The notes under the pieces were generated by a model that had not been told where the DNA came from, did no database searches, and saw only the letters and a program-made list of their open reading frames with translations. Positions 1,950 through 14,170 of a stretch of 20,000 nucleotides of DNA are shown one piece after another (position 1 is the stretch's first letter; each line of letters starts with the position of its first letter). Location: IMG/VR virus record IMGVR_UViG_3300042887_005898; one strand, written 5' to 3'. Origin of the DNA: an uncultured virus (IMG/VR IMGVR_UViG_3300042887_005898) (taxonomy: Duplodnaviria > Heunggongvirae > Uroviricota > Caudoviricetes). A program made the position numbers and the translations under genes.

Positions 1950-3611
1950 ATGCTTAAAAATATAATTGAAAAATATATAAATTCGGATAGTCGAAAGAAA
2001 ATTTCTTACTTAGAAAAAGAAATTACTAATCACTCTATACTATATAGTGAGTTCAAAAGAATCTCAAATCCCAATCTAAGCATTAGAAATAACATTTATA
2101 ACATTTATTATGATATAGATTCTATTATCTGTCCTGTTTGTCAGAATCAAAAAGTTGCTTGGAATGAAAAGGATTTTTGTTATAGAAAAACTTGTAGTTA
2201 TAAGTGTTCGGGTAAACTATTGAAAACTGGTAAAAAAGAATATAAGTTTCCAGAAATTGAATCAAAAGAACAATTTATTTCATTAGTTAGGCAAAACAAA
2301 GTTAAACTCACTTCGATTACTAAAACTTCTTACTATGAAGAAGTCAAAAACTATAGAGGTGAAACATTACAAGAGAAAACATTTAGATGGATTAATGAAC
2401 TAAATGATCAAATTTTATGTGACAAAAAAGATTGTCAAAATGAAGTAAGTTTTGTTAATTTCAGTAAAGGTTTTAGACAATTCTGCTCAGTTAAGTGTTC
2501 GTCATCATCTGATATAAAGATTTCAAAAGTTAAAGAAACTTGTCTAGAAAAATACAAAGTAGACAATGTTTCTAAAAGACAGCTACACATTGAAAGATAT
2601 AAAAGTATTCTGAGTAACTTTGATATCATTTCATATGATAGCTCATCTTTTGTTTTGTTTCATCATGATTGTAAAAATCAAATAGAGATAACAAGAAGAA
2701 TGATCTACGATAGAAACAACATGAATACTGAAATTTGTACACACTGTAATAAAATACAGAGTATGCAGTCAGGTTATGAGCTACAACTTAAACAGTGGTT
2801 GATTAACTTAGGTATTAACATCGATGAAAATAATAGGAAAATAATTTATCCAAAGGAGTTAGATTTGTTTCTACCCGACCACAATTTAGCGATTGAATTC
2901 AATGGATTATTCTGGCACTCAGAGAATTATGTTGGTAAGAATTACCATATAGACAAAACAAAACTTTGTGAAGAAAAGAATATCAAACTTATTCATATTT
3001 GGGAAGACGATTGGATTTACAAAAATGATATAGTAAAGTCAATTATAAGTAATAAATTAAAAATTAATCAGAGTAGAGTTTATGCTAGAAATTGTGAAGT
3101 AAGAGAAGTGACTGATGTAAAACTAGTAAAAGACTTTTTAAACAAAAATCATATACAAGGATATTGTAAATCACAGCACAAAATTGGATTATTTTATAAC
3201 AACGAACTTATTTCTTTGATGACTTTTGGGTTCAGAAAAACCAATTCTAAAAAAGAGTTTGAACTAATAAGGTTTTCAAACAAGAAATACTACACAGTTA
3301 TTGGCTCTGCGTCAAAACTATTTAGTTTCTTTGTTAATAAGTATCAACCAGAATTTATTTTATCCTATGCTGACATAAGTTTATTTGATGGGTCCTTATA
3401 TAATAGTCTTGGTTTCAAATTTATTCATAGAACAGAACCAAATTATTATTGGGTTGTTGATGGAATAAGGTATCACAGATGGGTGTTTAATAAAAAGAAA
3501 TTATTAGAGTCTGGTGGTAGTTCTAAGAAAACAGAAAAAGAAATTATGACAGATCGAGGTCATTTTAGAGTTTTTTCTTGTGGTCAAGATAGGTATGAGT
3601 TTACAAAATAA
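1950..3611 (+). CDS. free-standing homing-endonuclease-like protein: Cys-rich Zn-finger repeats, PD-(D/E)xK-like nuclease domain, C-terminal GNAT-like region
   Basis: CPVC..CSYKCS and C..C..FCSVKCS repeats; ELDLFLPDHNLAIEFNGLFWHS and LIHIWEDDW; NHIQG..ELIRF..SYAD..LYNSLGF; directly after nrdB. Confidence 0.7.
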   Translation: MLKNIIEKYINSDSRKKISYLEKEITNHSILYSEFKRISNPNLSIRNNIYNIYYDIDSIICPVCQNQKVAWNEKDFCYRKTCSYKCSGKLLKTGKKEYKFPEIESKEQFISLVRQNKVKLTSITKTSYYEEVKNYRGETLQEKTFRWINELNDQILCDKKDCQNEVSFVNFSKGFRQFCSVKCSSSSDIKISKVKETCLEKYKVDNVSKRQLHIERYKSILSNFDIISYDSSSFVLFHHDCKNQIEITRRMIYDRNNMNTEICTHCNKIQSMQSGYELQLKQWLINLGINIDENNRKIIYPKELDLFLPDHNLAIEFNGLFWHSENYVGKNYHIDKTKLCEEKNIKLIHIWEDDWIYKNDIVKSIISNKLKINQSRVYARNCEVREVTDVKLVKDFLNKNHIQGYCKSQHKIGLFYNNELISLMTFGFRKTNSKKEFELIRFSNKKYYTVIGSASKLFSFFVNKYQPEFILSYADISLFDGSLYNSLGFKFIHRTEPNYYWVVDGIRYHRWVFNKKKLLESGGSSKKTEKEIMTDRGHFRVFSCGQDRYEFTK

Positions 3612-3638: not shown

Positions 3639-3651
3639 TAATATATATTTG
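3639..3651 (+). promoter_or_regulatory. overlapping TAATATATA motif and Bacteroidota -7 element (TATATTTG) upstream of leader 1
   Basis: TAATATATA 3639-3647; TATATTTG 3644-3651 fits TAnnTTTG. Confidence 0.6.
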
Positions 3652-3673
3652 TATAACTTAAAATAGAAAAAAA

Positions 3674-3748
3674 ATGAAAGTTGTTAATAACATATCAATC
3701 ATAGGGAACGGCACTATAGCGGGTGGCCTTCTTTTGCTGATTGGTTAA
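3674..3748 (+). CDS. putative attenuator leader peptide 1 (MKVVNNISIIGNGTIAGGLLLLIG, 24 aa)
   Basis: ATG after an A-rich tract; codons 7-18 are ATA TCA ATC ATA GGG AAC GGC ACT ATA GCG GGT GGC; the 3' end is complementary to the downstream terminator. Confidence 0.75.
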   Translation: MKVVNNISIIGNGTIAGGLLLLIG

Positions 3749-3776
3749 GTATTGACTCTTTCATTCAAGATACTTT

Positions 3777-3807
3777 AAACCCAATCAGTGATGATTGGGT
3801 TTTTTTT
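3777..3807 (+). terminator. intrinsic terminator (attenuator) before tRNA array 1
   Basis: AAACCCAATCA-GTGA-TGATTGGGTTT, perfect 11 bp stem with GNRA loop, T8 at 3800-3807; 5' arm alternatively pairs with CTGATTGG at 3737-3744. Confidence 0.88.
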
Positions 3808-3816
3808 ATTTTATAT

Positions 3817-3890
3817 TGGTGAGTAGCTTAAACGGTAGAAGCACCTGTCTTATACACAGGAGAAAGTGGGATCGTTACCCACCTCACCAA
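3817..3890 (+). tRNA. tRNA-Ile(UAU)
   Basis: Acceptor TGGTGAG/CTCACCA; anticodon arm CCTGT-CT TAT AC-ACAGG; T-arm GTGGG-ATCGTTA-CCCAC. Confidence 0.9.
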
Positions 3891-3897
3891 CTAAACT

Positions 3898-3970
3898 GCA
3901 GAAGTGGTGTTAATGGTTAGCATGTGAGACTTCCACTCTCAAGGTGCCAGTTCGAATCTGGTCTTCTGCT
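3898..3970 (+). tRNA. tRNA-Gly(UCC)
   Basis: Acceptor GCAGAAG/CTTCTGC, U73; TGAGA-CT TCC AC-TCTCA; TTCGAAT T-loop. Confidence 0.93.
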
Positions 3971-3974
3971 CAAT

Positions 3975-4047
3975 GCGAGAGTAGCTCAATAGGTAGAGTA
4001 CCACCTTGCCAAGGTGGATGTTGCCGGATCGTACCCGGTCTCTCGCT
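3975..4047 (+). tRNA. tRNA-Gly(GCC)
   Basis: Acceptor GCGAGAG/CTCTCGC, U73; CCACC-TT GCC AA-GGTGG; T-loop ATCGTAC. Confidence 0.92.
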
Positions 4048-4060
4048 CTTTATAAATAAT

Positions 4061-4134
4061 GGGTCATTGGTGAAGCTGGCTATCACACAAGATTTGCAAT
4101 CTTGAGTCACGAGTTCGAAGCTCGTATGTATCCA
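4061..4134 (+). tRNA. tRNA-Ala(UGC), acceptor stem with a 1 nt bulge
   Basis: CAAGA-TT TGC AA-TCTTG; T-arm ACGAG-TTCGAAG-CTCGT; GGGTCAT pairs with ATG(T)ATCC and keeps G3:U70 and A73. Confidence 0.82.
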
Positions 4135-7068: not shown

Positions 7069-7094
7069 AAATTAACATTTAAGAAAATATAACT

Positions 7095-7150
7095 TATATT
7101 TGTAAAATAAATCGAAAAATACAAAACAAGGTAAGAATTTTTAATATATA
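7095..7150 (+). promoter_or_regulatory. tandem promoter elements upstream of leader 2
   Basis: TATATTTG at 7095-7102 and TAATATATA at 7142-7150; same layout as 19817-19890. Confidence 0.65.
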
Positions 7151-7157
7151 ATAAACA

Positions 7158-7265
7158 ATGAAAACAATGAATCTAAATATGACAAATTTGAATCTCACGG
7201 TGGTGAATACATTATGTATTAGAACCATGAGGTCGGGTATTGCCAAATTTAGAATTGTCTCATAA
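7158..7265 (+). CDS. putative attenuator leader peptide 2 (MKTMNLNMTNLNLTVVNTLCIRTMRSGIAKFRIVS, 35 aa)
   Basis: 20 of the first 25 codons encode M/T/N/V/C/I/R, the seven amino acids of array 2; AGGTCGGGT at 7230-7238 is complementary to the terminator 5' arm. Confidence 0.8.
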   Translation: MKTMNLNMTNLNLTVVNTLCIRTMRSGIAKFRIVS

Positions 7266-7292
7266 CATAGAGAATTAAGTCTAAAGATACAC

Positions 7293-7324
7293 AAACCCGA
7301 CCTTGAAAAAGAGTCGGGTTTTTT
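7293..7324 (+). terminator. intrinsic terminator (attenuator) before tRNA array 2
   Basis: AAACCCGAC-CTT-GAAA-AAG-(A)-GTCGGGTTT followed by a T-run. Confidence 0.88.
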
Positions 7325-7342
7325 ATTTTTGGATAAAAAGAT

Positions 7343-7415
7343 GGTTCCTTCATCTAACTGGAAAAGATATCTCTCTTCTAAAGAGATTATAGAGGTTCGA
7401 ATCCTCTAGGAACTA
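7343..7415 (+). tRNA. tRNA-Arg(UCU)
   Basis: GGTTCCT/AGGAACT; TCTCT-CT TCT AA-AGAGA; AGAGG-TTCGAAT-CCTCT. Confidence 0.9.
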
Positions 7416-7423
7416 CTAAAAAT

Positions 7424-7496
7424 TGACCAGAAGCTAGTACGGTACAGCGGCGGTTTGTTAAACCGAGGATAGTGGGATCGTTACCCACCTGGTAAG
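7424..7496 (+). tRNA. tRNA-Asn(GUU)
   Basis: TGACCAG/CTGGTAA (one mismatch), G73; CGGT-TT GTT AA-ACCG; T-arm GTGGG-ATCGTTA-CCCAC. Confidence 0.82.
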
Positions 7497-7503
7497 CTAA
7501 AAT

Positions 7504-7586
7504 GTACAGATGGTAGAGTGGCGAATACAACAGCCTGCAAAACTGTAGTCGAAAGACCGTCGGGGGTTCGAGTCCCTCTCTGTACT
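7504..7586 (+). tRNA. tRNA-Cys(GCA) with a long variable arm
   Basis: GTACAGA/TCTGTAC, U73; ACAGC-CT GCA AA-ACTGT; variable hairpin GTC-GAAA-GAC; TTCGAGT T-loop. Confidence 0.82.
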
Positions 7587-7592
7587 CAAAAT

Positions 7593-7665
7593 AGTCCTGT
7601 AGCTCAATCGGGGGAGCGCCACTCTTACATAGTGGAGGAAGTCGGATCGTAACCGACCGGGACTA
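7593..7665 (+). tRNA. tRNA-Val(UAC)
   Basis: AGTCCTG/CGGGACT; CCACT-CT TAC AT-AGTGG; GTCGG-ATCGTAA-CCGAC. Confidence 0.9.
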
Positions 7666-7672
7666 CTAAAAT

Positions 7673-7745
7673 TGTCAGTTAGCTCATTTGGTAGAGCACT
7701 TGTCTGATACACAAGAGGTGCCGGGATCGTAACCCGGACTGACAA
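7673..7745 (+). tRNA. tRNA-Ile(GAU)
   Basis: TGTCAGT/ACTGACA; CTTGT-CT GAT AC-ACAAG; CCGGG-ATCGTAA-CCCGG. Confidence 0.9.
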
Positions 7746-7751
7746 CTTAAT

Positions 7752-7825
7752 GCATTCTTCGTATAGTTGGTCTATTACTCTGGATTTGTAACCCAGAAAC
7801 GCCAGTTCGAATCTGGCAGAATGCT
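7752..7825 (+). tRNA. tRNA-Thr(UGU)
   Basis: GCATTCT/AGAATGC; CTGGA-TT TGT AA-CCCAG; GCCAG-TTCGAAT-CTGGC. Confidence 0.88.
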
Positions 7826-7836
7826 CTAATCAAAAT

Positions 7837-7908
7837 AGCGATATAGTGTAAAGGTTAGCTCACTTGGCTCATATCCTTGAGGATCAGGTTCGATTCCTGA
7901 TATCGCTA
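7837..7908 (+). tRNA. tRNA with CAU anticodon (Met most likely), weak anticodon stem
   Basis: AGCGATA/TATCGCT; CTTGG-CT CAT AT-CCTTG has two T-T mismatches; TCAGG-TTCGATT-CCTGA. Confidence 0.72.
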
Positions 7909-7987
7909 CAATATTATCTCAGAGTTAATAATGTGTCATGTTTTTTTATAATCTACATGTTTTTTCTTATAGAAAAATATATAAATT

Positions 7988-8716: not shown

Positions 8717-9675
8717 AAATATTATATGGTGTACAAGGAACAGGTAATGGTCACATCACTCGTTCAATAAAAATGATTACTACTCTAAAGAGTATGGGAT
8801 TCGAAGTTGATACTTTAGTTTCAGGTAGTAATTATCAAATCAATCTTCCTTTTGAATGTAAATTTAATTTTAAGGGTTTTAATTTTTCTTTTAATAAAGA
8901 TGGTAGTATAAATAAATTTAATACATTAATAGAAAATGACTTTTATCAATTCTTAAAAGATACTAAAATTGATTTGAAACAATATGATACTCTAATTACA
9001 GATTTTGAACCAATTTTAGCATGGTCGGCAAAGTTTAAAGAACGAGAGATATGGGGTATAGGAAATCAATATTCTTTTTTATCAAAGAATTCTCCAAGAC
9101 CTACAAAAAAAGATTTAATTGGTGAGACTGTTCTAAAATGGATGGCACCTGTAACAAACCCAATAGGTATTCATTTTCAAAGATATGACGATTTTATCGA
9201 ATTGCCGATAATAAGAGATGATATCATTTATGGTAAACTAGAAGATTTTGGTCACTATACTGTTTATCTACCGAATGTTAATTTGAAAGAATTAGTTAAT
9301 GAACTTAATAGTTTTACTAAAAATAGATTTCATATATTTAGTAACACATACTACTATAATACTGAATATAGAAATTGTAGAATATATCCTTTAGATAAAT
9401 TTATGTTTCAGAAAAGTTTTTTGACATCTACCGGCGTGATAACAACTGGTGGTTTTCAAACAACATCTGAGTCACTATATTGTGGTAAAAAATTACTAGT
9501 AATACCAATAAACAATCAATATGAACAAATGTGTAATGGTGAGTCTCTTAGTAGATTAGGTATCAAAGTTGGTCAGTTATCAGATATAGGGAATTTTCTA
9601 ACTTCATGTAAAAATGTTAAATTAACTTGGGAAGATCCTACGAATAAAATAATATCAATGATTACTAAAAGTTAA
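8713..9675 (+). CDS. GT-B glycosyltransferase (MJ1255/VC2487-like family)
   Basis: MKILYGVQGTGNGHITRS, ITDFEP, GGFQTTSESLYCGKKLLVIP..QYEQ..N; ATGA overlap with the upstream gene. Confidence 0.87.
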   Translation: MKILYGVQGTGNGHITRSIKMITTLKSMGFEVDTLVSGSNYQINLPFECKFNFKGFNFSFNKDGSINKFNTLIENDFYQFLKDTKIDLKQYDTLITDFEPILAWSAKFKEREIWGIGNQYSFLSKNSPRPTKKDLIGETVLKWMAPVTNPIGIHFQRYDDFIELPIIRDDIIYGKLEDFGHYTVYLPNVNLKELVNELNSFTKNRFHIFSNTYYYNTEYRNCRIYPLDKFMFQKSFLTSTGVITTGGFQTTSESLYCGKKLLVIPINNQYEQMCNGESLSRLGIKVGQLSDIGNFLTSCKNVKLTWEDPTNKIISMITKS

Positions 9676-12457
9676 ATTTAGCAGACAGAGTAATAGTTTG
9701 ACCAAATTGAACTTTTTGCCAATCGTTATCACCTAAATTAAATCTTTGATTATTATTCAAATCCTGAAAATAAATCAAATCCTGTGCTAAAATATCTTTA
9801 ATATTTAATTTTAACTCACAATTCTTAATTTTCTTTGATATTTGAAAATCTAAGACATGTCTTTCATTCTCCCATACACTTGGCTCTTGTACATTACCAA
9901 CTATATAAATTCTTGGACCAACTATATTATAAGAAATATTCGTTGAAAAGGTATTATCAGTATTATTCCAGTATAATCCAGTGTTAAAAACATAAGGTGA
10001 TTGTCCTTGTAGTGGTCTATTACCACCAGAACCGATTACTTCATCCATCATCACATTAGATTTTATAAATGCTAAATTTGAATTTATTGATAGGTTTTTA
10101 TAAATTTTTGATTTAATATCGATTTCAACACCAATGTTTTTTGCTTTATATACATTGTCATAATAAAGCTCTGGTGAACCAGATGTTCCTGTTCTATTAA
10201 TTATTTCTATCGGATTTATGAATTCTTTATAGAAACCAGAAACAGAGAATACTTGATTATTTGATGGGTAATACTCAAATCTCAAATCATAATTGTTTAT
10301 TATTGTTCTTTTTAGATAAGGATTTCCAGAAGTGATATTATCTTGTATGAAGTTATAAAAACTAAAAGGAGCTAGCTCTCTAAATTCTGGACGCGAAACC
10401 GTTTTTGAGTAGCTAGTTCTAACTTTAAATTTGTCGACATTAAAACTCAGATTAATACTTGGTAATAAATCTACAACTGTAGAATCAATTGTCTTTTTTA
10501 AGTTACTACCAAACTCAATATAGTTAAACCTTTGATTGTATGATTCAATTCGTAATCCAACATTTAAATTTACATTTTTAGTTTTGGTATCTATCATCAA
10601 ATAACCAGCATTTAATGTGGAATTAGCATCATAACTATCATCTACATTTGTTGACTCATCTAATTTGAATCCGCCTTGACCATTTTGAAGTAGTCCCATA
10701 TTTTCTATTGAAAAGATCTCATCTGTGTTTAATAGTAATAGTTCGCTATTGAATGTACTTCCAGTTGGTCGATATTGAGAGAATCCAAAGTTCCTGCTTG
10801 TAAAGTCTCTATTTCTATATTGAAAGAAGTAACCTGATTTAATTTCGCTTTTAATTTGACTTATTTCTAAATCTTTTGCATAATCTACTCTACCACCATA
10901 AACTTTTTCATTACTCTTAGACCAAAACATATTACCAGCAGCAGTTGGTATTGTACCATTAGTCTGAATTACTGCAACATACTCTTCATTAGGATCATTT
11001 TCTAAAAGTGAATATTTTCTATAAACAATTCTTCTTAGGTTTGGTATTTCTCTCTTAATATCACTGTGATTTATAGACCATTCAATTTTTGATTTGCTGA
11101 ACTCATGATTTCCTATTAATTGTTGTGTTAGTAGATTATTTTGAGTGTACCATAAGTTGGTTGACTTCTCCCACTGATGTGGATCATTATCCATTTCTCT
11201 TACACCATATCTTTTATTCACTTTGTCTTCAGAATTGATAGAATATAAGTTTTTGAACTTAATTGAGTTTTTATCATTGATTTTGAATTTGAAGTTTAAT
11301 AAACCAGTATTTAGAACATTTTGAGTAAATACTGAATCTCTTAGAATCATTTTTGTGATCACTTCGGTTTCTGATTCTTCAAATTCTTTTCTAACTATAT
11401 TATTTTGATTGTAGTTCAATTGATAATTATAATTGAAAACAAACCCAAATGAAGATTTATCTTTTCTTATCTTCCAGTTTCTACCAAATCCGAATTGTAA
11501 ATTCTGATTTAATGGTGACTTTATGTTTTTAGTAGACCAATCATTTTTTATTAATTTTGATAATTCTGCTTTTTCATTTTTGTTTAAATCTGAAAATTCT
11601 TCTGTACTTGGTAATCCGTTTGGTAATGATCTATAATCAGTTCCAAACCCAATAAAGTCACCTTTTGAACAATTATAAGTGTTGAAATTTCTAAAAGTAG
11701 AAATTGTATTGTATGACTGACCAATTTGAACATAAGAAAAATCATTATCCTTTATATCTTGTGTATTGATATTAATAATTCCTCCAGCAAACTCACCTGG
11801 TAGATCTGATGATGCTGTCTTCTGAATAAGAATATTATCTATCATATTTGAGGAAAATATATCAAATGAAAATGCTCTTTTATCACTTTCTGAACTCGGT
11901 AGAGGCGAACCATTAAGTAAACCAAAGTTGTATCTATCATTTAGACCTCTTATAATGACAAATTTGTTGTCTTGTATGGAAGCACCACTTATTCTTTTTA
12001 ATACATCTGAAGCTTTTGAATCAGGAGTTTTCTTGAATATTTCTGATGTTGTTCCGTCTACGACAGAACTGGAGTTCTTTTGTGTTAGTATCAAATCAAC
12101 TTGTGTGTCTTTGTCTCTAGTCGCGAAAATTTTGAGTTCTTTTGAGTCTGTTTTATCATCTCTTTTCATTTTGATGACTATTGAACCAGTCGGACTAGAT
12201 TCAACGATATTCACTTTGACAGAGTAGTCTAAGTAGGTGACATATCTAATTTCAATTTCATGCGATCCAGTCGGTAAAATTAGTTCAAATTTACCATCAA
12301 TATCCGAGACTGTTCCAGTGTTTAGTTTAGGACAATATACAACTGCACCAATAAGTGACTCGTTTGAGGTTGAGTCACTTATTGTACCAATCAATTTTGC
12401 CTGACTTAGTAGTTGTGTAGAAACTAAAATTAAAAAAGACAATAAAACTGACCTCAT
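9665..12457 (-). CDS. TonB-dependent outer-membrane receptor with N-terminal carboxypeptidase-regulatory-like domain
   Basis: Signal peptide; G..SDIDGKF; plug motif IIRGLNDRYN; SRPEFRELAPF; DLRFEYYP; RPLQGQSPY; terminal aromatic residue (KFNF). Confidence 0.93.
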   Translation of the reverse strand: MRSVLLSFLILVSTQLLSQAKLIGTISDSTSNESLIGAVVYCPKLNTGTVSDIDGKFELILPTGSHEIEIRYVTYLDYSVKVNIVESSPTGSIVIKMKRDDKTDSKELKIFATRDKDTQVDLILTQKNSSSVVDGTTSEIFKKTPDSKASDVLKRISGASIQDNKFVIIRGLNDRYNFGLLNGSPLPSSESDKRAFSFDIFSSNMIDNILIQKTASSDLPGEFAGGIININTQDIKDNDFSYVQIGQSYNTISTFRNFNTYNCSKGDFIGFGTDYRSLPNGLPSTEEFSDLNKNEKAELSKLIKNDWSTKNIKSPLNQNLQFGFGRNWKIRKDKSSFGFVFNYNYQLNYNQNNIVRKEFEESETEVITKMILRDSVFTQNVLNTGLLNFKFKINDKNSIKFKNLYSINSEDKVNKRYGVREMDNDPHQWEKSTNLWYTQNNLLTQQLIGNHEFSKSKIEWSINHSDIKREIPNLRRIVYRKYSLLENDPNEEYVAVIQTNGTIPTAAGNMFWSKSNEKVYGGRVDYAKDLEISQIKSEIKSGYFFQYRNRDFTSRNFGFSQYRPTGSTFNSELLLLNTDEIFSIENMGLLQNGQGGFKLDESTNVDDSYDANSTLNAGYLMIDTKTKNVNLNVGLRIESYNQRFNYIEFGSNLKKTIDSTVVDLLPSINLSFNVDKFKVRTSYSKTVSRPEFRELAPFSFYNFIQDNITSGNPYLKRTIINNYDLRFEYYPSNNQVFSVSGFYKEFINPIEIINRTGTSGSPELYYDNVYKAKNIGVEIDIKSKIYKNLSINSNLAFIKSNVMMDEVIGSGGNRPLQGQSPYVFNTGLYWNNTDNTFSTNISYNIVGPRIYIVGNVQEPSVWENERHVLDFQISKKIKNCELKLNIKDILAQDLIYFQDLNNNQRFNLGDNDWQKVQFGQTITLSAKFNF

Positions 12458-14016
12458 TGTTTAATTATATTTTTAAAAACTTTTTCATTTACTTGAACAG
12501 TGTAAATACCATAGTCTAAACTTGATAAGTTTATTTCTGTACTATTAAAACCTTTATTTATATTTACAATCTGACCTAAGTGATTATAAACCTTCACAAT
12601 TATCGGACCATCTAATTTTATGTTTACAACTCCTAATGTTGGATTAGGATAAATAATCAAACTTTGGTCTAAATCATTATAAACATTATTAATTAATCCC
12701 AATTTTGAATGTGTAAAGTCAGCATTATTTGATACAATTGAATTTTCGTTAAGTCTAGCATCTGGATTAGAATTAAATATATCTACCCAATTAATTTCTG
12801 AAACAGACATTATTGAATCATTTTGATTAGTGGAAAAGAATTCATAGAAACTCGCTAGTGAAGTCACACAATTATTTGGTATGTTTGATAAAACATTATT
12901 TGAAAAAACAAGAGAACCGTTAGTTACATTAGATTCTGTAGCTGTTCCTTCAATTGATAACCCTTTTTCCCAACCTGTCACTAAAGAATTAAAAACTGAG
13001 ATAGAAGAATTTCTTCTGATTCTAAAAGCTTTTTCAAATTTTTCACCAACAGGTAAAACTTGAGATCCATCACCAAGTGGACCAACTATTGTAAAATTTG
13101 AAAACACGGCCGCGGTTTGTGGTAAATTAGATGAACCGGTTGCATCATTATCACTTTCAAAACAGTTTGAATCACCAGGAGCATCGTATCTTGTGTTGTC
13201 ACGAATTGCTAATCCAAACTGAACATTACCTCTATATCCAAAGTCTGTATCAAAGTCATCATCGATACCTTTGTAGGCGATTAAGTGTTTACAGTTCACA
13301 GTACCACCAAACCACTCAAATGAGTCATCACCTGAAAATGATACTTGTACAAAATCAATTATAGTCAATGAACCGACTGAACCAAAAGTAATACCATTTA
13401 TTTCTTTATTTGGCTCAAGTGGAATGCCACCAAATTCAACTCTAACATATCTTAAAATACCTGAGTTATCAGAATCATCACTACCACCATATTGTGTGTT
13501 AGAAGATGGTGTTATTCCCTCAATGTTTGCGAATCCTCCTGGTTGATTATTAACTGCTTTACCTAAAATAACCAATCCTCCCCAATCTCCTTCAGCTCTT
13601 AAACCGATCTCTTCGTTTGATGTGAAAATAATTGGTTGATCTTGTGTTCCGTCAGCGATTATTTTTGAACCTTTAGTTATGATAAGAGTTCCTTGTGTTG
13701 AGTAATCACCTCTTATGATTGTTCCAGGCAGAATTGTTAGTGTTGCATTATTTGTTACATATACTTTATTTTGCAAAAGTATTACACCACTTAATGTAGT
13801 ATTACTGGTAATGTCATTTGATAATACAGTATTTGTTTGTGGATAATCTGTATTTTCTGGATCAAAATTAGACCAACCAGATGTCCAGTTAGTAGCAGGA
13901 GTATTATCTGTTACCGGAAATGCACCTTTGTAAGAAGTTTGATCCCAGAAGGAATTTTGGCAAATTACTAAATTAGTAAAAGCTAAAAAAAGAATTAAAA
14001 TTGATAATCTTTTCAT
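12454..14016 (-). CDS. secreted beta-helix-like protein with a type IX secretion (T9SS type A) C-terminal sorting domain
   Basis: Signal peptide from MKRLSIL (14016); PIIFTS..GDWGGLVILG..DNSGILRYVRVEFGG..GDDSFEWFGGTVN; C-terminal IYPNP...YNHLGQ...GIYTVQV...KNIIKQ. Confidence 0.87.
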   Translation of the reverse strand: MKRLSILILFLAFTNLVICQNSFWDQTSYKGAFPVTDNTPATNWTSGWSNFDPENTDYPQTNTVLSNDITSNTTLSGVILLQNKVYVTNNATLTILPGTIIRGDYSTQGTLIITKGSKIIADGTQDQPIIFTSNEEIGLRAEGDWGGLVILGKAVNNQPGGFANIEGITPSSNTQYGGSDDSDNSGILRYVRVEFGGIPLEPNKEINGITFGSVGSLTIIDFVQVSFSGDDSFEWFGGTVNCKHLIAYKGIDDDFDTDFGYRGNVQFGLAIRDNTRYDAPGDSNCFESDNDATGSSNLPQTAAVFSNFTIVGPLGDGSQVLPVGEKFEKAFRIRRNSSISVFNSLVTGWEKGLSIEGTATESNVTNGSLVFSNNVLSNIPNNCVTSLASFYEFFSTNQNDSIMSVSEINWVDIFNSNPDARLNENSIVSNNADFTHSKLGLINNVYNDLDQSLIIYPNPTLGVVNIKLDGPIIVKVYNHLGQIVNINKGFNSTEINLSSLDYGIYTVQVNEKVFKNIIKQ

Positions 14017-14170
14017 AAATAAAGTTTTTTTTTCAACTTTATATATCATCCAGAAATCAAAAGGAACAGTTAATATTTTGATTATTACATCGAAATAATC
14101 ATGTAAAATCAGACCAATAAAGGCACTCAGTAATATATTAAGAAACTGCTATCAATCAGTAAACTCAGTG

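What the first reader, a model, noticed from the sequence alone, without database searches (positions are those of the whole stretch)
7158..7908. Attenuator 2: one leader sampling all seven amino acids of its tRNA array
The segment TVVNTLCIRTMR (codons 14-25) contains Thr, Val, Asn, Cys, Ile, Arg and Met, exactly the seven specificities downstream; only Lys and Leu are non-cognate in the first 25 codons. AGGTCGGGT-A-TTG (7230-7242) pairs with CAA-ACCCGACCT (7292-7303), extended inward by TTTAGA/TCTAAA and TCTC/GAGA, giving a long antiterminator that encloses the stop codon and excludes the terminator. Inference: an OR-gate in which loss of any one tRNA induces the whole array.
Basis: partly seen in the sequence, partly recalled or inferred. 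Interest (0 to 1): 0.92.

Follow-up and report, generated by a model that had tools for sequence, protein, structure and literature searches.

The report
Leader-peptide attenuator gating a tRNA array
A 35-codon test gene, written in the codons that the tRNA genes behind it read and joined to a switchable transcription stop, probably lets a large freshwater phage make this tRNA set only when ribosomes read those codons slowly.

Summary
An ORF (7158-7265, MKTMNLNMTNLNLTVVNTLCIRTMRSGIAKFRIVS) is followed by three arms (A 7229-7242, B 7292-7304, C 7313-7323 plus a T-run) and, 12 bases later, by Arg, Asn-like, Cys, Val, Ile, Thr and Met tRNA genes.

Taken alone the codon match is moderate (P about 1e-5 to 1e-3). 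Comparison settles it. Homologous units precede tRNA arrays in two published huge phages, many IMG/VR contigs and lake metagenomes.

Three phage records each carry seven such units, each leader spelling its own array: F/H/K/W, S/R, E/Y, I/G/A, N/L/T/V/C/I/R/M, P/D and poly-Q. In each record the true leader-array pairing is the single best of 5040 permutations.

Codon choice follows the anticodon (AGA vs CGC, ATA vs ATT). Arms A, B and C covary. Indels inside the ORF keep the reading frame.

Folding adds a fourth segment: the sensor codons pair with arm A, as in the trp attenuator.

Limits:
- The Asn tRNA carries one acceptor-stem mismatch here.
- The four Leu codons have no Leu tRNA in this window, though relatives have them.
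- The inner helices are not conserved.
- No expression data were found.

The scan has met this system before on other DNA. Six literature searches found no published account. I read it as a new variant of leader-peptide attenuation, confidence about 0.8.

The parts
7095..7102 (+). TATATTTG, promoter-like box of the form TAnnTTTG (the Bacteroidota -7 element; that name is recalled, not tested)
   Evidence: Read. TAnnTTTG lies within 110 nt upstream of the ATG in 39 of 49 units, against 4 in a control stretch 220-330 nt upstream.
7138..7151 (+). TTTTTAATATATAA box, 7 nt before the ATG, shared by most units
   Evidence: T[AT]ATATATA occurs in 40 of 49 units, but many units were found with a pattern that contains this box. 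The same box sits directly before an initiator-like tRNA-Met with no leader in L061 and L070.
7158..7265 (+). Leader ORF 2, 35 codons plus TAA: MKTMNLNMTNLNLTVVNTLCIRTMRSGIAKFRIVS
   Evidence: Homologous ORFs appear. Gap runs inside the ORF are multiples of three in 53/56 (A1) and 20/20 (A2), against 7/29 and 0/27 after the stop.
7172..7201 (+). Segment 1: sensor codons about 6-15, which pair with segment 2 when no ribosome is present
   Evidence: The fold of 7150-7335 has an MFE of -54.1 kcal/mol, z = -6.55, 0 of 200 shuffles as good. The same kind of pairing is predicted in 46 of 51 units. It is 84% paired in close relatives but shows almost no covariation.
7229..7242 (+). Segment 2 (arm A), codons 24-29. 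It pairs either with segment 1 or with arm B.
   Evidence: Alignment column 94 covaries with column 168: UA 7, GC 2, AU 1.
7292..7304 (+). Segment 3 (arm B), shared by the antiterminator and the terminator
7313..7330 (+). Segment 4 (arm C) and T-run. Together with arm B this is the intrinsic terminator.
   Evidence: Terminator about -16 kcal/mol. Column 168 covaries with column 180: AU 7, CG 2, UA 1. The simple terminator scan missed it because its loop limit is 8.
7343..7416 (+). tRNA-Arg (TCT)
7424..7496 (+). tRNA-Asn-like (GTT), with a G2:A71 mismatch caused by A at 7494
   Evidence: 30.4 bits. It is intact in strain L198. C at 7494 is also read in contigs of runs X5 and X6.
7504..7587 (+). 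tRNA-Cys (GCA)
7593..7666 (+). tRNA-Val (TAC)
7673..7746 (+). tRNA-Ile (GAT)
7752..7826 (+). tRNA-Thr (TGT)
7837..7909 (+). tRNA-Met (CAT)
3644..3807 (+). Sister unit ('attenuator 1'). It holds a TATATTTG box (3644-3651), leader ORF 3674-3748 (MKVVNNISIIGNGTIAGGLLLLIG), arm A 3736-3744, arm B 3777-3788, arm C 3792-3799 and a T-run to 3807.
   Evidence: A:B -17.2 kcal/mol, z -3.5; 1 of 29 unrelated arms as good. Homologous I/G/A leaders occur in L056, L061 and L070.
3817..4133 (+). Array 1: tRNA-Ile (TAT), Gly (TCC), Gly (GCC), Ala (TGC)
   Evidence: Three of the four Ile codons in the sensor part of leader 1 are ATA, the codon that anticodon TAT reads.

Best explanation
This is a ribosome-mediated (leader-peptide) transcription attenuator that gates a tRNA operon. 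It is one of a family of paralogous units in large phages of, probably, Bacteroidota.

Transcription starts upstream of a 35-codon leader, and ribosomes translate the leader while RNA polymerase moves on. The RNA has four segments:
- Segment 1: the sensor codons.
- Segment 2: arm A, at the 3' end of the ORF.
- Segment 3: arm B.
- Segment 4: arm C plus a U-run.

When the codons are read quickly, or not translated at all, segment 2 is covered by the ribosome or held by segment 1. Segments 3 and 4 then form the terminator, and transcription stops 12 bases before the first tRNA.

When a ribosome stalls on any sensor codon because its tRNA is scarce or uncharged, segment 1 is masked and segment 2 is free. 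Segment 2 pairs with segment 3, the terminator cannot form, and the whole array is transcribed. The new tRNAs speed up decoding of the leader and shut the unit off again, which is a negative feedback on tRNA supply.

Shown here: the anatomy, its conservation, the match between leader codons and array anticodons, covariation of the three arms, and conservation of the reading frame.

Inferred: translation of the leader, its coupling to transcription, which stall positions are productive, and the direction of the response.
For: Anatomy in the window.

Homologous leaders with the same layout:
- Huge phages LR756502.1 and LR745206.1.
- IMG/VR contigs: 3 of 52 loci for the first pattern, and 29 matches in 26 of 120 loci for the second.
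- Lake metagenome contigs, 12 of 12 loci.

A systematic scan gave 58 units with 51 distinct leader peptides. There are seven units in each of three phage records.

Match between leader and array:
- 412/868 cognate residues against 151.5 +/- 19.7 with permuted arrays; 0 of 20,000 permutations as high (45 units with at least 2 tRNAs).
- Within each of three records, the true pairing is the only one of 5040 permutations to reach the observed score.
- In 135 of 138 cases an amino acid with a tRNA in the array appears in leader codons 7 to arm A.
- The cognate fraction is 57% (366/643) in that block, against 20% (46/225) in codons 2-6 and 19% (86/445) from arm A to the stop.

Codon level:
- Arg: AGR or CGN against anticodon class gives the table [[10,1],[3,7]], p = 0.0075.
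- Ile: ATA or ATY against TAT or GAT gives [[9,2],[2,13]], p = 0.0009.
- 357 of 412 cognate codons are readable by an array anticodon under strict wobble.

Structure:
- Arm A lies at codons 14-29, mostly 19-27, in all 51 units. The A:B duplex z-scores are mostly -2 to -6.
- The unit's own arm B is the best partner among unrelated arms in 26 of 51 units and in the top tenth in 37 of 51.
- In the close family the main antiterminator helix is 92% paired. Three of its 13 pairs change on both sides. The covariation score is 0.123 against 0.043 +/- 0.014 (0 of 500 shuffles) and at most 0.078 when slid.
- The same column of arm B covaries with arm C.
- The segment 1:2 hairpin is predicted in 46 of 51 units.

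Reading frame: gap lengths inside the ORF are multiples of three in 53/56 and 20/20, against 7/29 and 0/27 after the stop.

There is no room for a separate promoter. The distance from the end of arm C to the first tRNA has a median of 15.5 nt and is at most 40 nt in 48 of 58 units.
Against: There is no direct evidence of expression, termination or read-through. No RNA run holds the stretch, and the reads laid were contigs only.

The units are related to each other, so counts over units are not independent events.

The segment 1:2 pairing is conserved (84% paired against at most 47% when slid) but shows almost no covariation. It was also derived from the window's own fold.

The match is not strict:
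- This window's leader has four Leu codons but no Leu tRNA in the array, and a strain with the same leader has a different array.
- 19 of 45 cognate Ser codons are AGT, with no Ser-GCT tRNA seen in the arrays, some of which are cut off.
- The shared prefix MKT-x-N-x-N makes most leaders score fairly well against the large N/L/T/V/I array. Only 4, 4 and 6 of 7 leaders score highest with their own array.

In a purely thermodynamic simulation of leader 1 the terminator always won. In leader 2 only stalls at about codons 9-16 gave the antiterminator. The Ile and Arg codons at 21-25 lie so close to arm A that a stalled ribosome would partly cover it.

A sigma-70-like consensus match lies inside the array at 7739-7767. 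It is a consensus match only: 10 were found against 5.2 +/- 2.4 in shuffles.
Confidence: 0.8

Rival explanations
1. The unit is a translation-coupled attenuator that reports general translation capacity, such as ribosome availability or host shut-off, rather than the supply of particular tRNAs. The codon composition would then be secondary.
For: The same four-segment anatomy would serve this purpose. All leader types share a prefix (MKT-x-N-x-N) and a promoter cassette. No experiment separates the two readings.
Against: Each of seven units per genome is written in the amino acids of its own array, down to the choice of synonymous codon. Gln arrays have poly-Q leaders. A general sensor would not need this.
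Confidence: 0.08
2. The short ORFs encode small proteins, or are not translated at all, and the hairpins are processing or stability signals for the tRNA precursor. The terminator would then act constitutively but leak.
For: tRNA precursors are processed at structured flanks (general knowledge). No expression data exist for these units.
Against: The peptides have no conserved core beyond the prefix, and their composition follows the array. Arm A covaries with arm B although it lies inside the ORF. Frame-preserving indels argue for translation.
Confidence: 0.06
3. The leader RNA binds tRNAs directly, without a ribosome, like a T-box with many specifier codons.
For: The runs of codons are complementary to the anticodons of the array, and an antiterminator/terminator pair is present.
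Against: No T-box or other Rfam cis-regulatory family matches 7080-7520, even at E up to 10. The codons sit in a conserved reading frame with start and stop codons and frame-preserving indels. No Stem I or T-box motif was seen by eye.
Confidence: 0.03
4. This is a chance ORF lying next to an ordinary terminator of the upstream gene.
For: Taken alone the window gives only P about 1e-3 to 1e-5. AT-rich DNA is also full of short ORFs.
Against: The unit is conserved in many phages, with promoter-like boxes upstream of the ORF rather than downstream of the terminator. The within-genome permutation tests also argue against chance.
Confidence: 0.02

Closest known systems
Multivalent leader-peptide attenuators of enterobacterial amino-acid operons: thr (Thr+Ile), ilvGMEDA (Ile/Leu/Val) and ilvBN, with trp, his, leu and pheA as the single-amino-acid forms. 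This is recalled textbook knowledge.
   Same: A short leader ORF is enriched in regulatory codons. The RNA has four segments giving 1:2, 2:3 and 3:4 pairings. An intrinsic terminator lies directly before the regulated genes. Several amino acids are read by one leader, which works as an OR gate.
   Different: The regulated genes are tRNAs, not biosynthetic enzymes, so the product acts back on the sensor itself. Up to eight specificities are read in one leader. Seven paralogous units occur per phage genome. The setting is viral and probably Bacteroidota. There is no match to the Rfam leader families (Trp_leader 14.5 bits against a cut-off of 41).
The pheST (pheM leader) attenuator of E. coli (recalled, not read here)
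   Same: Leader-peptide attenuation controls a component of the translation apparatus, and the sensor reads how well its own codons are decoded.
   Different: The target there is an aminoacyl-tRNA synthetase, one amino acid is sensed, and the setting is cellular.
T-box riboswitches
   Same: They sense tRNA status and switch between an antiterminator and a terminator.
   Different: A T-box binds one uncharged tRNA directly, without a ribosome, and has conserved Stem I and T-box motifs. None is found here.
Earlier notes of this scan on other genomes: 'leader-peptide attenuators gating phage tRNA arrays'
   Same: They describe the same kind of unit: a promoter, a codon-matched leader, a switchable terminator and a tRNA block. 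They also report no published account.
   Different: They concern other DNA, and no look-alike stretch of this window is indexed. They are unchecked AI notes, apart from one marked 'what was seen stands'.

Membership tests
Ribosome-mediated (leader-peptide) transcription attenuator | A short ORF with start and stop codons lies between the promoter and the regulated genes | tested here: met
   ORF 7158-7265. It is conserved in relatives with frame-preserving indels.
Ribosome-mediated (leader-peptide) transcription attenuator | The leader is enriched in codons tied to the regulated product | tested here: met
   The match extends to codon choice.
Ribosome-mediated (leader-peptide) transcription attenuator | An intrinsic terminator lies directly upstream of the regulated genes | tested here: met
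   A G+C-rich stem plus a T-run at 7293-7330. Terminators of -12 to -21 kcal/mol occur in all 51 units. The first tRNA follows at a median of 15.5 nt.
Ribosome-mediated (leader-peptide) transcription attenuator | An antiterminator uses the 5' arm of the terminator and a segment at the end of the leader ORF | tested here: met
   (covariation, 0 of 500 shuffles as high).
Ribosome-mediated (leader-peptide) transcription attenuator | An anti-antiterminator (segment 1:2) gives termination when the leader is not translated | tested here: inconclusive
   It is predicted in 46 of 51 units and in the window. It is conserved, but with almost no covariation.
Ribosome-mediated (leader-peptide) transcription attenuator | Read-through rises when ribosomes stall on the regulatory codons | not testable with these tools
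   No RNA data were found. This needs Term-seq, reporters or a reconstituted system.
Rfam leader families (Trp_leader, His_leader, Leu_leader, Thr_leader and others) | A match to the family covariance model at its gathering score | tested here: not met
   One search gave no hit at gathering score. In one search the best is Trp_leader at 14.5 bits against 41. The unit works like these families but is not a homologue of them.
T-box riboswitch | A match to the T-box model, including Stem I, the specifier loop and the T-box motif | tested here: not met
   No T-box match in 7080-7520 at E up to 10.

The most novel reading that the evidence does not exclude
Large phages carry a modular tRNA-supply sensor. 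It consists of seven or more paralogous leader-peptide attenuators, each making one block of phage tRNA genes self-regulating. A block would be switched on when the host's pool for exactly those codons is too small or is being destroyed, for example by host anticodon nucleases or by shut-off of host tRNA synthesis. This would be the first case of classical attenuation controlling tRNA genes. It would also be a viral circuit that measures decoding speed codon by codon. The rare, wobble-read codons in the leader (GTG GTG, ACG, AGG, CTC) would serve to sharpen the sensor.
Probability: 0.4. Interest if true: 0.92.

Novelty: new variant of a known kind. Interest (0 to 1): 0.85.

Why it matters
Leader-peptide attenuation is a textbook mechanism, but it is known for amino-acid biosynthesis and a few related genes, not for tRNA genes.

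If these units work as read here, phages tune each block of their own tRNAs by a feedback loop that measures how fast particular codons are decoded. That would answer a long-standing question about how and when phage tRNA genes are expressed.

It would also give a natural set of about eight orthogonal sensors of codon decoding speed. These could be used to probe tRNA supply in Bacteroidota and in cell-free systems. It would further link phage tRNA arrays to host defences that attack tRNAs.

Tried and rejected
- Whole-genome look-up: none is held for this window.
- Expression: no RNA holder is listed for the stretch. Laying four runs gave contigs only, with nothing on starts, ends or levels. 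One run labelled RNA is probably DNA.
- Column counts on the wide family alignment A1 were weak because MAFFT shifts the register of the arms between subfamilies. The terminator itself was only 80% paired. I therefore used an alignment-free cross-test and a closer family alignment, A2.
- A thermodynamic stalled-ribosome simulation allowed pairs across the ribosome and ignored the order of folding. It gave the antiterminator only for stalls at about codons 9-16 of leader 2, and never for leader 1. I do not rely on it.
- The simple terminator scan did not list the 7293-7330 terminator because of its loop limit.
None is a family member, and the one short ORF with a tRNA is unrelated. The viral collection gave 26 of 120 loci.
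- Most matches to the first pattern in IMG/VR were chance: 49 of 52 loci. Three of four matches to the third pattern were an unrelated gene.
- Rows dropped before the unit counts were ORFs beginning MYEY, MYSI or MRLTA, which are other-frame ORFs overlapping kept leaders. Also dropped were MALRF (L080, L101), MESVK (L065) and MIMKA (L106). These three are ORF-terminator-tRNA hits that did not resemble the family and were not studied further.
- Six of 51 units with fewer than two tRNAs in the held DNA were left out.
- In some searches the window's leader 2 was entered one base too far right (7159-7266). This spoils its codons. It shifts positions by one base, and in the arm-A boundary that sets the sensor range counted. 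It was corrected from then on.
Both were repeated.
Full report
**What is in the window**

The stretch 7095-7909 reads, in order:
- a TATATTTG box (7095-7102);
- a TTTTTAATATATAA box (7138-7151);
- an ORF of 35 codons (7158-7265, MKTMNLNMTNLNLTVVNTLCIRTMRSGIAKFRIVS);
- arm A (7229-7242);
- arm B (7292-7304);
- arm C with a T-run (7313-7330);
- from 7343, tRNA genes for Arg-TCT, an Asn-GTT-like gene, Cys-GCA, Val-TAC, Ile-GAT, Thr-TGT and Met-CAT.

Without arm C, the RNA 7150-7306 folds into the long A:B hairpin with the stop codon in its inner loop (-35.8 kcal/mol).

With arm C, the best fold of 7150-7335 is a hairpin between the sensor codons and arm A, plus the terminator (-54.1 kcal/mol, z = -6.55, 0 of 200 shuffles as good). 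The switch therefore has four segments, as in the trp attenuator, not three.

**The seventh tRNA**

ARAGORN and Rfam at gathering score call six tRNAs. The Asn-like gene at 7424-7496 reaches 30.4 bits against a cut-off of 29 and has three non-standard pairs.

A metagenome contig whose leader matches the window at 179 of 180 bases (L198) has C where the window has A at 7494. That restores the acceptor stem, and ARAGORN calls it Asn there. Contigs from two other runs also read C. The Asn gene is therefore real in the lineage and slightly damaged, or mis-assembled, in this window.

**Chance, for the window alone**

Using the amino-acid usage of the window's 13 long ORFs (5458 residues), one search gives:
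- 19 of 24 cognate residues in codons 2-25: P = 1.3e-5.
- 14 of 24 if only the six firm tRNAs count: P = 1e-3.
- A 12-mer with at least 11 cognate residues and all seven kinds: 2 of 400,000 simulations.

The A:B duplex (-18.2 kcal/mol) beats all 200 shuffles. It also beats all 41 unrelated terminator arms offered to this leader. On its own this is suggestive but not conclusive.

**Relatives**

The two best phage-database hits are uncultured huge phages, LR756502.1 (642 kb) and LR745206.1 (635 kb). Both have a homologous leader in front of an Asn/Leu/Val/Ile/Thr/Met/Arg array:
- MKTMNLNMNLNTLTVVNNTLCIRPCEGFDLFNDL
- MTTMNLNMTMNLTLNVVNITLCNIRPTEGSDLFREIVM

Each has its own three arms. Pattern scans found more:
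- IMG/VR, first pattern: 3 of 52 loci.
- Lake metagenomes: 12 of 12 loci.

No whole genome is held for the window. Several points fit a fragment of a large phage of Bacteroidota, though this is not proven:
- G+C is even, at 26-36%.
- Several ORFs have homologues in the viral loci.
- The TonB-receptor-like ORF has a 26%-identical homologue in LR745206.1.

The window's DNA occurs in lake and freshwater metagenomes. Nineteen rows from 14 studies hold at least half of its sampled words, and four of those rows may be its source.

**The general rule**

I listed all tRNAs of the two GenBank phages and one 476-kb IMG/VR record. I then fetched every array with its upstream DNA and scanned all loci for a short ORF, a terminator and a tRNA within 450 nt. 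This gave 58 units with 51 distinct leader peptides.

Each of the three records has seven units:

| Leader type | Example leader | Array |
|---|---|---|
| F/H/K/W | MRTNNTHKHFSKSNKWFSNQ... | Phe, His, Trp, Lys |
| S/R | MKTTIKNTSSRSRSSKSGEVRLYS | Arg-ACG, Ser |
| E/Y | MTTITNIAYYYEGERSS... | Glu, Tyr |
| I/G/A | MKNLNNISIAVIGNGAGAIREWLSYGI | Ile-TAT, Gly, Ala |
| N/L/T/V/C/I/R/M | this window's leader 2 | Asn, Leu, Val, Ile, Thr, Met, Arg |
| P/D | MKTINVNIAPVNPQPQDQDPMRK... | Pro, Asp |
| poly-Q | MTTSFQQQQQQQINRTD | Gln |

The window's leader 1 (MKVVNNISIIGNGTIAGGLLLLIG) belongs to the I/G/A type.

In another clade the large unit is split. MKTTNLNINLTLNVLCLRQRPG... precedes Arg and five Leu tRNAs. 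MKTTTININVITITNCVNNTTSG..., which has no Leu among its sensor codons, precedes Asn, Ile, Val, Cys and Thr with no Leu tRNA.

Isolated tRNAs (initiator-like Met, Cys, Met, Arg-TCT) have no unit. Of 63 array heads or internal gaps over 100 nt, 23 carry a unit. I did not examine what the other gaps hold.

**Statistics of the match**

- Over 45 units with at least two tRNAs, 412 of 868 leader residues before arm A are cognate to the unit's own array. Permuted arrays give 151.5 +/- 19.7, and 0 of 20,000 permutations reach the observed value.
- Units are related, so I also tested within genomes. In each of the three records the true assignment of seven leaders to seven arrays is the only one of 5040 permutations to reach the observed score.
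- An amino acid with a tRNA in the array appears in leader codons 7 to arm A in 135 of 138 cases. The cognate share is 57% in that block, against about 20% before and after it.
- Arg-TCT/CCT arrays go with AGR codons and Arg-ACG/TCG arrays with CGN ([[10,1],[3,7]], p = 0.0075). Ile-TAT arrays go with ATA and Ile-GAT arrays with ATT or ATC ([[9,2],[2,13]], p = 0.0009).
- The window's leader uses codons that are rare in its own genes: GTG twice (18 of 275 Val codons), ACG (10 of 338), CTC (13 of 448) and AGG (13 of 196). Its four Leu codons are four different codons. Relatives' arrays carry the four Leu isoacceptors (TAA, CAA, AAG, TAG) that read them.

**Structure**

Arm A lies at codons 14-29, mostly 19-27, of every leader, just after the cognate block.

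The unit's own arm B is the best partner among all unrelated arms in 26 of 51 units. It is in the top tenth in 37 of 51, and is 5.8 kcal/mol better on average.

In the close family alignment (10 sequences), the main antiterminator helix is 92% paired. One position is G:C in the window and L198, U:A in seven sequences and A:U in L207. The same arm-B column pairs with a covarying column of arm C. The covariation score is 0.123 against 0.043 +/- 0.014 (0 of 500 shuffles) and at most 0.078 in the slid controls.

The segment 1:2 hairpin is predicted independently in 46 of 51 units, pairing arm A with codons about 8-16. In the close family it is conserved without covariation.

Gap runs inside the ORF are multiples of three in 53 of 56 and 20 of 20 cases, against 7 of 29 and 0 of 27 after the stop. 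This argues that the frame is read.

The first tRNA follows the end of arm C at a median of 15.5 nt. TAnnTTTG boxes lie upstream of the leaders in 39 of 49 units, against 4 in a control stretch. The array must therefore be transcribed through the terminator.

**How it most likely works**

A ribosome that stalls on any sensor codon masks segment 1 and leaves arm A free to capture arm B as it is made, so the terminator cannot form. A ribosome that runs to the stop codon lets arm B pair with arm C, as does an untranslated leader in which segment 1 holds arm A.

Low supply of any one of the sampled tRNAs would then induce the whole block, and the block's products close the loop. This is multivalent attenuation, as in the thr and ilv leaders (recalled), applied to tRNA genes.

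The inferred parts are:
- translation of the leader;
- its coupling to RNA polymerase;
- the set of productive stall positions, since the Ile and Arg codons at 21-25 lie near arm A;
- the direction of the response.

**What speaks against a strict reading**

- This window's array lacks Leu tRNAs although the leader has four Leu codons. Strain L198, with essentially the same leader (179 of 180 bases), carries Leu-TAA and different Ile and Thr alleles. Arrays are therefore reshuffled faster than leaders adapt.
- 19 of 45 cognate Ser codons are AGT, with no Ser-GCT tRNA seen.
- The shared prefix inflates scores against the big N/L/T/V/I array.
- No expression data exist.

**Comparison with what is known**

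No Rfam leader or T-box model matches. Six full-text searches found no account of leader-peptide attenuation of tRNA genes or arrays. I saw search listings and abstracts only. Subscription journals and supplements were not covered.

This scan has noted the same kind of system on other genomes, but no look-alike of this window is indexed. Those notes agree with my reading, which I reached before seeing them, but they are not independent evidence.

**Verdict**

I class it as a new variant of a known kind of regulation. Confidence is 0.8 and interest 0.85.

Noticed in passing
window 7593-7746, 3817-3891, 3975-4048, 7424-7496; also L001 and L002: Several tRNAs have an unusual T-loop, ATCGTAA or ATCGTTA, instead of TTCGAAT. 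The usual T54:A58 positions appear swapped to A54:T58. Their neighbours Arg, Cys, Thr and Met keep the canonical loop. This occurs in the window and in the huge phages.
   Followed up: no
window 7667-7830 against L198 3500-3900: A near-identical strain has a different segment between tRNA-Val and tRNA-Met. It carries other Ile-GAT and Thr-TGT alleles plus a Leu-TAA gene that is absent from the window, while the flanks are identical. This looks like a cassette swap inside the array.
   Followed up: partly
L061 about 1200-1350; L070 about 1200-1350: An initiator-like tRNA-Met (5' CGCGGGG) sits directly behind the TTTTTAATATATA box, with no leader or terminator. The box may therefore be a promoter element in its own right.
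   Followed up: no
all leader types: All leader types share the prefix M-K/T/R-T/N-x-N-x-N and the same upstream boxes. This suggests one promoter-leader cassette was duplicated and only its sensor block rewritten.
   Followed up: partly
window 1950-3611: A 553-aa ORF with a weak Vsr-like endonuclease match lies just upstream of attenuator 1. It has homologues in several viral loci (L136, L150, L130, L147) and may be a homing endonuclease.
   Followed up: no
window 9665-14049: A TonB-dependent-receptor-like ORF (930 aa) and an ORF with a T9SS C-terminal sorting domain lie in what otherwise looks like phage DNA. The receptor has a 26%-identical homologue in huge phage LR745206.1.
   Followed up: partly
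L001 3212-3415: In LR756502.1 a 67-codon ORF lies between the terminator and the first tRNA of the array. That attenuator therefore also gates a small protein gene.
   Followed up: no
L146 3090-3323 (minus strand of the locus): A further leader type, MKTRIVNIATGTATGRPVAGRPAIFQGVKGENMYS, is rich in A, G, T, P and R. It has its own arms and a tRNA about 70 nt downstream. Its array was not resolved.
   Followed up: no
L005, L020, L036, L045: A short ORF, MQTMNINMRVILKIKSYK, recurs in four IMG/VR contigs that matched the first pattern. Whether it is related to the leaders was not examined.
   Followed up: no
window 7739-7767: A sigma-70-like consensus match (CTGACA-17-TATAGT) spans the end of tRNA-Ile and the start of tRNA-Thr. 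It is probably chance, and it is not the promoter type expected here.
   Followed up: no
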